Part shown: piece after piece, positions 61,512 through 62,123 of the stretch
Numbering within the stretch: the stretch's first letter is position 1
How the letters are laid out: each line of letters opens with the position of its first letter
Assembly (NCBI RefSeq): GCF_003334815.1
Contig: NZ_QOWO01000026.1
Length of the DNA: 62,123 bases
Source: Escherichia coli
GTDB lineage: Bacteria; Pseudomonadota; Gammaproteobacteria; Enterobacterales; Enterobacteriaceae
Strand: one strand, 5' to 3'
The notes under the pieces: model-generated
What the model was told of the DNA's origin: nothing
Databases searched by the model: none
Seen by the model: only the letters and a program-made list of their open reading frames with translations
Translations under genes and position numbers: made by a program

Positions 61512-61631
61512 CCAAGCTGTCCACCCCCGGGGAGATTTGCCTTGAGGATGACCATAGTCGATGACCATATTGCTACAGGCCTGTGTGGTCATGTTTTTGA
61601 CTCACGGTTTTCACTACTTGTCAAGGATTTC

Positions 61632-61654
61632 TAATACGACTCACTATAGAGAGA
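61632..61654 (+). promoter_or_regulatory. T7 RNA polymerase-type promoter (exact -17..+1 consensus)
   Basis: TAATACGACTCACTATA G AGAGA: positions -17 to +1 identical to the phage T7 promoter core; predicted +1 G at 61649. Confidence 0.7.
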
Positions 61655-61769
61655 AGGGACACAAAAAGTTTTCTCTCTTTCTCTCTCTTCTAGGACACTT
61701 GCTACTACTACTACAGGCCTGTGTGGTCATGTTTTTGACTCACAGTTTTCACTACTTGTCAAGGATTTC

Positions 61770-61792
61770 TAATGCGACTCACTATAGAGAGA
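61770..61792 (+). promoter_or_regulatory. T7 RNA polymerase-type promoter, second copy (1 mismatch)
   Basis: TAATGCGACTCACTATA G AGAGA; A to G at -13; predicted +1 G at 61787. Confidence 0.6.
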
Positions 61793-61858
61793 AGGGACAC
61801 AAAAAGTTTTCTCTCTTTCTCTCTCTTCTAGGACACTTGCTACTACTACTACAGGTAG

Positions 61859-61888
61859 CTCTAACTCTAACTCTAACTCTAACTCTAA
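61859..61888 (+). repeat. Hexanucleotide microsatellite (CTCTAA)x5
   Basis: ctctaactctaactctaactctaactctaa immediately after the 138-bp repeats. Confidence 0.9.
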
Positions 61889-62123
61889 CCGTAACTTATC
61901 GCATCCTTTCAGGGGCGGGATGACCAATTACAGACACCAAGCGTTCTACTTAAAGTGAATGCTTCCTGTGTGCTCTGGGTCAGTCGATAAGTGAATAGCA
62001 ATAGACATCATATTAAATATGGTCTCTACCCTACAGGGGCTTAACTCTGATGAATCCCCTAATGATTTTGGTAAAAATCATTAAGTTAAGGTGGATACAC
62101 ATCTTGTCATATGATCAAATGGT

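What the first reader, a model, noticed from the sequence alone, without database searches (positions are those of the whole stretch)
61548..61928. GATGACCA motif: two direct copies 12 bp apart just after the integrase stop, and a third after the promoter repeats
gatgaccata occurs at 61548-61557 and 61560-61569, and gatgaccaat at 61919-61928, bracketing the tandem T7-promoter repeats. The spaced direct repeats look like binding sites for a DNA-binding protein (integrase arm-type sites, an excisionase or a replication initiator).
Basis: seen in the sequence. Interest (0 to 1): 0.3.

Follow-up and report, generated by a model that had tools for sequence, protein, structure and literature searches.

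The report
Variable 13-bp repeat after an integrase gene
The two adjacent GATGACCATA copies are the short form of a 13-bp tandem repeat whose copy number varies (2 to 13) among related small E. coli islands that carry phage-T7 promoters; they are not integrase arm sites, and the "third copy" belongs to a separate conserved hairpin.

Summary
The motif is present, with small errors. The copies lie at 61547-61556 and 61560-69, so the period is 13 bp, not 12. The third copy is at 61919-28.

The window is E. coli chromosome. tRNA-Gly (glyU) is followed by a 548-aa integrase and a non-coding stretch with two T7 promoters, cut by IS10 at 62047.

In 12 related glyU islands (~4.2 kb where intact) the pair is a 13-bp minisatellite, GATG(A/G)CCATAGGC, with 2, 3, 4, 12 or 13 copies. 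It was found nowhere else. Sister islands with the same backbone lack it and carry the anti-T7 gene PD-T7-4 at that position.

The third copy is a different element. Its GGATG is the 3' arm of a hairpin with compensatory changes across genera, and it is present in islands without the array.

Arm-type sites are better explained by paired [C/G]TGTAAC repeats 64-87 bp from both att cores. The array lies 1.8 kb from the core.

Best reading (confidence about 0.4): a slippage-generated repeat whose promoter-proximal unit pairs with an inverted TGTGGTCAT plus a T-run just downstream of int. Protein-binding iterons or T7 primase sites (TGGTC) remain possible.

The motif itself is of low interest. The T7-wired island family around it is more interesting.

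The parts
61547..61559 (+). Array unit 1, GATGACCATAGTC. The bottom strand reads TATGGTC and contains TGGTC.
   Evidence: It is homologous to the GATG(A/G)CCATAGGC units of related islands.
61560..61572 (+). Array unit 2, GATGACCATATTG. It corresponds to the terminal unit of the longer arrays and is the predicted 5' arm of a stem-loop.
   Evidence: In the fold it pairs with 61584-61592.
61584..61599 (+). TGTGGTCAT, the inverted partner of unit 2, followed by G-TTTTT-G. It is the first bases of the conserved block upstream of the first T7 promoter.
   Evidence: Sequence. Fold centroid -15.1 kcal/mol. The same T-run is flagged as terminator-like in L001.
61902..61922 (+). Conserved hairpin: CATCC (61902-06), loop TTTCAGGGGCG, GGATG (61918-22). 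The 3' arm overlaps the 'third copy'.
   Evidence: the arms covary across genera (CATCC/GGATG, TCTCC/GGAGA, TTCCC/GGGAA, TTCTCC/GGAGAA, TTTCC/GGAAA).
61919..61928 (+). The 'third copy', GATGACCAAT. It is not part of the array and lies inside a block conserved in islands that lack the array.
61573..61855 (+). Two 138-bp tandem units. Each has a T7-type promoter (61632-61654 TAATACGACTCACTATAGAGAGA; 61770-61792 TAATGCGACTCACTATAGAGAGA) and an upstream TGTGTGGTCATG element (61584, 61722).
   Evidence: The promoter part alone matches 192 phage records, mostly coliphages and including T7 itself.
59865..61511 (+). Tyrosine integrase, 548 aa. The array begins 35 nt after its stop codon.
   Evidence: Phage_integrase domain at residues 341-528; DUF6538 at residues 15-63.
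59728..59750 (+). attL core: the 3' end of tRNA-Gly(CCC) glyU (tRNA at 59677-59750). In complete relatives it is repeated as a 23-bp direct repeat at the far end of the island.
59825..59843 (+). Pair of [C/G]TGTAAC repeats 12 bp apart. These are the better candidates for integrase arm-type sites.
   Evidence: Pairs lie at the same distance beside both att cores in L003, L004, L007, L008, L010 and L012.
62018..62024 (+). Further TATGGTC copy on the top strand. It is part of AATATGGTC, the exact complement of GACCATATT in unit 2.
   Evidence: (I2).
62047..62123 (+). End of IS10, which truncates the island. The rest of the island is outside the window.
   Evidence: Sequence (IS10 recognised from my own knowledge). 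RNA-OUT match at 62092-62123, minus strand. Uninterrupted sequence in L002.

Best explanation
The two adjacent GATGACCATA copies are the minimal form of a 13-bp minisatellite, GATG(A/G)CCATAGGC. It sits directly after the integrase gene of a small glyU-integrated E. coli island (about 4.2 kb where intact).

The array grows and shrinks by replication slippage or unequal exchange, which explains the 2 to 13 copies seen among nearly identical islands. It is the reverse complement of the T(A/G)TGGTC elements that lie between it and the T7 promoters.

The most likely sequence-level role is base-pairing, not protein recognition. The promoter-proximal unit pairs with the inverted TGTGGTCAT that precedes a run of T, giving a stem-loop plus U-tract just downstream of int. 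This could act as a terminator or insulator, or as a 3'-end stabiliser. Longer arrays pair with the inverted 10-bp repeats.

Shown: the repeat, its copy-number variation, its restriction to this island, its dispensability in sister islands, and the predicted pairing. Inferred: slippage as the origin, and the terminator/insulator role. The third copy is unrelated to the array.
For: Copy number and period: 2 copies (window, L002, L003, L009), 3 (L001, L010-12), 4 (L008), 12 (L004, L007) and 13 (L032), always with a 13-bp period. Of 61 units, only position 5 (A/G) and positions 11-13 vary.

Restriction to this island: no hit in 50,697 phage records or in IMG/VR. The single hit in the metagenome collection is the same island. 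None of 15 related islands in other genera has it.

Dispensability: E. coli sister islands L030, L031 and L033 keep the same backbone (int, promoters, conserved downstream block; KilA-N-type and small genes where not disrupted). They lack the array and its inverted partners, and carry a DUF4145 gene (the family matching PD-T7-4) in that position.

Pairing: in L001 the array pairs with the inverted repeats at -48.7 kcal/mol, z = -3.6, with 0 of 200 shuffles as good. L003 gives z = -2.75. In the window, unit 2 pairs with TGTGGTCAT in a 10-bp stem, followed by GUUUUUGA. A terminator-like site is flagged at the same T-run in L001.

Repeat-prone context: the non-coding region holds several other tandem arrays.
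Against: The window's own fold is not significant (z = -1.4; 18 of 200 shuffles fold as well). The terminator scan finds nothing in the window, because the loop is 12-14 nt. The count of terminator-like sites in L001 is within the shuffle range.

No compensatory change supports the stem. L002 has TGTAGTCAT, and the long-array islands have CCTATGATCC; both introduce mismatches.

Long arrays (12-13 units) far outnumber their inverted partners. Islands carrying DUF4145 have no stem-loop between that gene and the T7 promoter. Every sampled array keeps at least 2 units, which could instead reflect selection for reiteration, that is, binding sites.
Confidence: 0.4

Rival explanations
1. The units are iterons: reiterated binding sites for a DNA-binding protein of the island (the KilA-N-like or Rha-like regulator, the 157-aa protein or Int), of the host, or of the infecting phage. 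With the inverted T(A/G)TGG(T/C)C repeats, they would organise a nucleoprotein complex next to the T7 promoters.
For: There are direct repeats on one side and inverted copies of the same core on the other side of the promoter region. The core ATG(A/G)CCAT is nearly palindromic, and the G variant makes it a perfect palindrome, ATGGCCAT. Related 10-bp-period arrays (TGTGTGGTCC, TGTATGGCCC) lie upstream of the promoters. At least 2 units are kept in all 12 sampled islands. Five TRTGGYC copies lie within 475 bp of the window, while the window-wide count is at chance.
Against: No DNA-binding gene covaries with the array. Rha-type (L001) and KilA-N-type (L003, L004) islands both have it, and sister islands with KilA-N-type genes lack it. 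Copy number varies more than six-fold among nearly identical islands. The 13-bp period is out of helical phase. No phage carries the motif as an array.
Confidence: 0.2
2. The units are reiterated recognition sites for the T7 gene 4 primase (5'-TGGTC-3' on the bottom strand). They would serve lagging-strand priming of a leftward fork that starts at a T7-type origin formed by the tandem T7 promoters and the AT-rich region.
For: Each A-variant unit carries TGGTC on the bottom strand, which is the correct strand for a site left of the origin (PMC12839067).

The pentamers (G/T)(G/T)GTC are 3-5 times enriched on both strands of the non-coding region in islands with T7 promoters.

By my own check of the sequence against the flank rule of PMC12839067 (A/T-rich 3' flank plus a '-10' dinucleotide), both window units and TGTGGTC-ATGTTTTT-GA satisfy it.

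The island's AT-rich region aligns with the T7 primary-origin AT-rich region at 5930-5995, scoring 40-47 against a block-shuffle maximum of 29-32. A T7 promoter is the essential element of T7 origins (PMC8373140).
Against: The G variant (GATGGCC), seen in 12 of 61 units, destroys the GTC. The related downstream arrays are mostly TATGGCC. The enrichment comes largely from repeats and is absent in L005. Such pentamers occur every few hundred bases by chance, so an array is not needed. The canonical unit only borderline fits the flank rule.
Confidence: 0.15
3. The copies are integrase arm-type sites, or excisionase sites, of attP.
For: They are direct repeats close to the int gene. The integrase has an extra N-terminal domain (DUF6538) that could bind arm sites.
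Against: The array is 1797 bp from the attL core, with int in between. No copy lies near attL or attR in six complete islands. Paired [C/G]TGTAAC repeats lie 64-87 bp from both cores. Sister islands with closely related integrases lack the array. No excisionase-like product was recognised.
Confidence: 0.03
4. All three copies form one functional set, the same factor binding on both sides of the promoters.
For: GGATGACCA is an exact 9-mer at 61546 and 61918. The same A/G polymorphism occurs at the same motif position in the array (GATGGCCATA) and in the third copy of L005/L013 (GATGGCCAC).
Against: The third copy is retained in islands without any array: L030, L031, L033, L015, L021 and L028. 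Its GGATG pairs with an upstream CATCC, and the pair changes in a compensatory way in other genera, where the ACCA part is not kept. The distance from the array to the third copy varies among islands.
Confidence: 0.05

Closest known systems
Bacterial VNTR / minisatellite loci (such as those used for MLVA typing of E. coli)
   Same: Head-to-tail units of constant length in an intergenic position. Copy number varies (2-13) among close relatives. Unit variants are arranged in patterns typical of slippage (AAgAAgAAgAgAg).
   Different: It lies inside a mobile island, in a region dense with other cis-element-like repeats, and has inverted partners with which it can pair.
Arm-type integrase sites of lambda-like attP
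   Same: Short direct repeats associated with a tyrosine integrase gene.
   Different: Arm sites lie within roughly 150 bp of the core, on both arms. The array is 1.8 kb away and on one side only. The TGTAAC pairs fit the definition instead.
Origin iterons of plasmids and phage satellites (P4 ori/crr, SaPI ori)
   Same: Tandem short repeats near an AT-rich region in a small mobile element.
   Different: No cognate initiator gene was recognised. The array is absent from sister islands. The period is 13 bp. The origin-like part resembles the initiator-free, promoter-driven T7 origin.
T7 primary origin (phi1.1A/phi1.1B, AT-rich region, gene 4 primase sites)
   Same: Tandem T7 promoters followed downstream (about 250 bp further on in intact relatives) by an AT-rich stretch that aligns with T7 5930-5995. 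(G/T)(G/T)GTC sites lie on the expected strands.
   Different: T7 has no 13-mer array. The G variants lack GTC. No replication data exist.
Stem-loops downstream of int or at mRNA 3' ends (intrinsic terminators; lambda sib-type retroregulation; from my own knowledge)
   Same: A stem-loop starting about 50 nt after the int stop and followed by a T-run.
   Different: The loop is long, the fold is only marginally better than shuffles in the window, there is no covariation, and it is absent in DUF4145-bearing islands.
Integrase-linked PD-T7-4 (DUF4145) loci of Vassallo et al. 2022, and minimalist satellites of virulent phages (PICMI, PMC10803314)
   Same: The same integrase family and the same position after int. 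[quoted passage not shown] The element is small and gene-poor, with att sites.
   Different: The window's variant has the repeat array instead of the defence gene. T7 promoters in these loci are not mentioned in the papers I could search. Induction or packaging by a phage is untested.

Membership tests
Integrase arm-type sites | Located on the P and P' arms, within about 150-200 bp of the att core | tested here: not met
   The array starts 1797 bp from the core end (59750), with int in between. In relatives it lies at island position about 1768.
Integrase arm-type sites | Copies present beside both ends of the integrated element (attL and attR) | tested here: not met
   No GATGACCA lies near attL or attR in L003, L004, L007, L008, L010 or L012. 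[C/G]TGTAAC pairs do occur at both ends.
Integrase arm-type sites | Bound by the integrase N-terminal domain | not testable with these tools
   Needs EMSA or footprinting. The integrase does have an N-terminal DUF6538.
Replication-origin iterons | Tandem direct repeats of constant period | tested here: met
   13-bp period, 2-13 copies.
Replication-origin iterons | Cognate initiator (Rep) gene in the same element | tested here: not met
   The recognisable island products are an integrase, KilA-N/Rha-type regulators, DUF4145 and DUF6971. The 157-aa and some other products have no recognisable family. No Rep was found.
Replication-origin iterons | Conserved in related replicons | tested here: not met
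   Absent from sister E. coli islands and from 15 islands in other genera.
T7 gene 4 primase recognition sites | 5'-(G/T)(G/T)GTC-3' on the template strand | tested here: met
   TGGTC is on the bottom strand of both window units. The definition is from PMC12839067.
T7 gene 4 primase recognition sites | GTC retained in the repeat units if selected for priming | tested here: not met
   12 of 61 units are GATGGCC, which lacks GTC. The related arrays are mostly TATGGCC.
T7 gene 4 primase recognition sites | Primer synthesis by gp4 | not testable with these tools
   Needs an in vitro primase assay.
Intrinsic terminator | Stable stem-loop immediately followed by a U-tract | tested here: inconclusive
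   In the window there is a 10-bp stem with a loop of about 12-14 nt and then GUUUUUG; z = -1.4, and the scan is negative. In L001 the scan is positive at the same T-run, but the site count is within the shuffle range.
VNTR / minisatellite | Head-to-tail repeat with copy-number polymorphism among close relatives | tested here: met
   2, 3, 4, 12 or 13 copies in islands that are otherwise closely similar.
Phage satellite / phage-inducible island (context of the array) | Integrase plus att sites, small size, and helper-specific cis signals | tested here: met
   A 23-bp direct repeat bounds about 4.2 kb. T7-group promoters occur in all 15 loci examined in other genera and in the E. coli relatives whose post-int sequence was read. 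The AT-rich region resembles the T7 origin.
Phage satellite / phage-inducible island (context of the array) | Excision, replication and packaging induced by a helper phage | not testable with these tools
   Needs T7 infection experiments. No packaging-signal similarity was found for the array region.

The most novel reading that the evidence does not exclude
The array, with its inverted TRTGGTC partners, is a reiterated entry or recognition site for T7 replication proteins (gp4 primase-helicase) or for another T7-group phage factor. It would form the left flank of a promoter-driven, T7-type origin in an undescribed family of mini-islands that are replicated, and possibly packaged, by T7-group phages.
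Probability: 0.12. Interest if true: 0.75.

Novelty: new member of a known kind. Interest (0 to 1): 0.3.

Why it matters
On its own the motif matters little. It is a lineage-specific variable repeat that may be useful as a typing marker. Its analysis also corrects the att anatomy of the island: the arm-type candidates are the TGTAAC pairs.

It matters more as a pointer to its context. The array marks one variant of a small integrase island found across Enterobacterales. These islands carry promoters for T7-group phage RNA polymerases, an AT-rich stretch resembling the T7 replication origin, and, in sister variants, the anti-T7 gene PD-T7-4. If these islands are switched on, copied or moved by T7-like phages, they would be natural satellites or defence elements of a strictly lytic model phage. 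I found no description of such elements.

Tried and rejected
1. Phage origin of the array. BLAST of the array, of the whole non-coding region and of the conserved block against 50,697 phage records gave no match, or only the promoter part matched. The pattern scan of IMG/VR gave 0 hits. The metagenome scan gave 1 hit, which is the same island.

2. Packaging-site mimicry. Local alignment of the array, the inverted repeats and the upstream block against the T7 and T3 genome ends scored within the shuffle range. A resemblance of GACTCA(C/T)AGT to the T7/T3 left ends (TCTCACAGT / TCTCATAGT; my own reading) was seen after the fact and is kept only as a weak lead.

3. Coding. The ORF at 61561-61923 starts in unit 2 and stops in copy 3. 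It runs across both T7 promoters, and its frame is not kept in relatives, so I rejected it.

4. Known RNA families. Rfam found only IS10 RNA-OUT.

5. Sigma-70 promoters. None were found in the window's non-coding region.

6. Formal covariation counts. MAFFT alignments of the hairpin block were out of structural register. The arms were therefore tabulated by script instead, and the choice of register is mine.

7. Literature. Searches for T7 satellites or T7-promoter islands found nothing relevant. The library is incomplete.

Full report
**Observation.** The window's last 2.4 kb contains, in order:
- tRNA-Gly(CCC) at 59677-59750;
- a 548-aa tyrosine integrase at 59865-61511;
- a non-coding stretch at 61512-62046;
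- the end of IS10 from 62047.

GATGACCATA is at 61547-61556 and 61560-61569. The first copy is one base earlier than reported, and the period is 13 bp, not 12. GATGACCAAT is at 61919-61928.

The 8-mer is not over-represented window-wide: 4 copies against 2.3 expected, with 18 of 100 shuffles reaching 4. Three of the four copies lie within 382 bp. Exact 10-mers repeated within 30 bp occur at only five loci in the window.

**Where the window comes from.** The upstream 20 kb is 99.9% identical to E. coli chromosomes (ygfK to xdhA, actS, glyU). Related integrase regions follow glyU in 365 of 5426 complete E. coli genomes.

In complete relatives the element is bounded by a 23-bp direct repeat of the tRNA 3' end. 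It is only about 4.2 kb long. Its contents are int, about 1-1.3 kb of repeat-rich non-coding DNA, a KilA-N-like or Rha-like gene, and one or a few small genes. In the window the island is cut by IS10 535 bp after int.

**The tandem pair is a minisatellite.** In 12 islands the sequence after the int stop is (GATG[A/G]CCATAGGC)n with a strict 13-bp period. The copy number n is:
- 2 in the window, L002, L003 and L009;
- 3 in L001 and L010-12;
- 4 in L008;
- 12 in L004 and L007;
- 13 in L032.

Among 61 units only position 5 (A in 49, G in 12) and positions 11-13 vary.

The array is followed by inverted copies of its core: CCTATGGTCC, (T[G/A]TGTGGTCC)n and TGTGTGGTCATG. Their number also varies.

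The array was not found in 50,697 phage records or in IMG/VR. The one hit among the metagenome records is the same island. It was not found in the 15 related islands examined from other genera.

**The array is dispensable for the island's core design.** E. coli sister islands L030, L031 and L033 keep int, the T7 promoters, the conserved downstream block and (where not disrupted) the same small genes. A DUF4145 gene follows or overlaps the int stop, and the T7 promoter follows that gene directly. There is no array and there are no inverted partners.

The DUF4145 protein of the sister island L005 matches PADLOC PD-T7-4 at E = 8e-99. [quoted passage not shown]

**The third copy is a different element.** It lies in a block (TAACCGTAACTTATCGCATCCTTTCAGGGGCGGGATGACCAA...ACAGACACC) that is present with or without the array in E. 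coli, Rouxiella, Edaphovirga and an unnamed Enterobacteriaceae isolate. A diverged form is present in Klebsiella, Enterobacter, Citrobacter, Buttiauxella, Shimwellia and Proteus.

Its GGATG (61918-22) pairs with CATCC (61902-06) across a conserved loop. In other genera the arms are TCTCC/GGAGA, TTCCC/GGGAA, TTCTCC/GGAGAA and TTTCC/GGAAA. These are exact complements with double changes at three stem positions, while the ACCA part is not kept.

One caveat applies. I chose the register, and the arms are pyrimidine-rich and purine-rich, which makes pairing easier to find by chance.

**Not arm sites.** The array is 1797 bp from the att core and has no counterpart near attR. By contrast, [C/G]TGTAAC pairs 12 bp apart lie at +75/+87 from the attL core and -76/-64 from the attR core in six complete islands. 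In the window they are at 59825 and 59837. No Rep or excisionase gene was recognised.

**Context.** Both window promoters match the T7 consensus core: TAATACGACTCACTATAG at 61632 and a one-base variant at 61770. The promoter part alone matches 192 phage records, mostly coliphages and including T7 itself.

Relatives in other genera carry promoters of other T7-group types instead. I identified the variant in L005 and L013, AATTAGGGCACACTATAGGGAGA, as the phage K11 type from my own knowledge.

The AT-rich TTAAAG-repeat region beyond the IS10 insertion point is intact in relatives. It aligns with the T7 primary-origin AT-rich region (5930-5995), scoring 40-47 against a block-shuffle maximum of 29-32. 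A GGTGAT...ATCACC inverted repeat resembles the one downstream of phiOR in T7 and T3, judged by eye; the alignment score was not above shuffles. A T7 promoter is the essential element of T7 origins (PMC8373140).

The island therefore looks wired to T7-group phages. I found no paper describing this, though the searchable library is incomplete.

**What the array does.** Four readings were weighed.

*(a) Structural or slippage repeat.* In L001 the array folds onto the inverted repeats at -48.7 kcal/mol, z = -3.6. In L003, z = -2.75. In the window, unit 2 pairs with TGTGGTCAT and is followed by GUUUUUGA, but z is only -1.4. A terminator-like site is flagged at the same T-run in L001 and none is flagged in the window. 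No compensatory changes support the stem; L002 and the long-array islands carry mismatches.

*(b) Protein-binding iterons.* The arrangement and the near-palindromic core ATG(A/G)CCAT fit. However, no gene covaries with the array, and sister islands lack it.

*(c) T7 primase sites.* TGGTC is on the correct strand, and (G/T)(G/T)GTC pentamers are 3-5 times enriched in these regions. Against this, the G variants and the related TATGGCC arrays lack GTC, and the enrichment comes from repeats.

*(d) Arm sites.* Rejected, as explained above.

I commit to (a) at about 0.4, with (b) at 0.2 and (c) at 0.15.

**Verdict.** The feature is real, but it is an ordinary kind of thing. It is a lineage-specific variable tandem repeat at the edge of a cis-element-rich region. 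The surrounding island family is the more interesting object.

Noticed in passing
window 61573-61855; L013-L028; L005 8800-9360: The integrase family found at glyU in E. coli occurs across Enterobacterales: Klebsiella, Lonsdalea, Rouxiella, Enterobacter, Citrobacter, Buttiauxella, Shimwellia, Kluyvera, Proteus, Pectobacterium and Edaphovirga. In all 15 loci examined it is followed by promoters of T7-group phage RNA polymerases. The promoter sequence type differs between hosts, and some islands carry mixed types (T7-type plus what I take to be K11-type in L005 and L013). I found no description in the searchable literature.
   Followed up: partly
L005 8155-8787; L030 4355-4996; L031 4194-4835; L033 4563-5192: Sister islands carry a DUF4145 gene directly after or overlapping the int stop, exactly where the window has the repeat array. 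The L005 protein matches PD-T7-4, an anti-T7 defence gene, at E = 8e-99.
   Followed up: partly
window 61885-61990 (hairpin 61902-61922): A block downstream of the phage promoters is conserved across genera. It contains a 5-bp stem with compensatory changes and a conserved loop, TTTCAGGGGCG, preceded by TAAC(C)GTA. It could be a structured RNA made by the phage polymerase, or a DNA element of the origin. It has no Rfam match.
   Followed up: partly
L001 14000-14215; L003 9300-9550; L005 9160-9300 (beyond the IS10 insertion point in the window): An AT-rich TTAAAG/TTATAG repeat region aligns with the T7 primary-origin AT-rich region (T7 5930-5995) better than any block shuffle. It is followed by a GGTGAT...ATCACC inverted repeat like the one downstream of phiOR in T7 and T3.
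   Followed up: partly
window 59825-59843: CTGTAAC and GTGTAAC lie 12 bp apart, 75-87 bp from the attL core. Relatives have a matching pair 64-76 bp from the attR core. These are the likely integrase arm-type sites.
   Followed up: yes
window 62047-62123: An IS10 end, with an RNA-OUT match at 62092-62123 on the minus strand, is inserted after GGGGCTTAACT and truncates the island. Relatives carry IS1, IS2, IS5, IS3-family or IS21-family insertions in the same non-coding region or in int, which suggests frequent inactivation.
   Followed up: partly
window 60405-60460: A 12-bp tandem repeat inside the integrase gene encodes (PEVK)n: APEVKPEVKPEVKLEVKPEVTP. It looks like a linker between the N-terminal region and the catalytic domain. 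Relatives such as L003 lack it.
   Followed up: partly
window 61859-61889: A perfect (CTCTAA)5 microsatellite lies between the promoter units and the conserved block. Relatives have fewer copies.
   Followed up: no
L001 14235-14370 and 14530-14580: L001 has about 10 tandem copies of TCTCT(CT)AGGGTC, each containing GGGTC, a T7 primase pentamer, on the top strand. It also has a CACCA(G/C)(C/T)AGCACC array containing CCACCAGC, the reverse complement of Chi (GCTGGTGG).
   Followed up: no
window 61598-61612 and 61736-61750; L001 13632-13645: GACTCAC(G/A)GTTTT in the window and GACTCATAGTTTT in L001, upstream of the T7 promoters, resemble the left genome ends of T7 (TCTCACAGTG) and T3 (TCTCATAGTT), with the same C/T difference. 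The match is short and was noticed after the fact.
   Followed up: no
L003 9624-9650: GATGCCATGTAGTTTCGTATGGCCT resembles GATGCCCTGTAGTTCTTAATGGCCT in the T3 right-end region, just left of the terminal repeat. The score was 26, and none of 100 shuffles reached it.
   Followed up: no
window 61770-61792: The second T7 promoter copy has G instead of A in the upstream part (TAATGCGACTC...). This may weaken it relative to the first copy.
   Followed up: no
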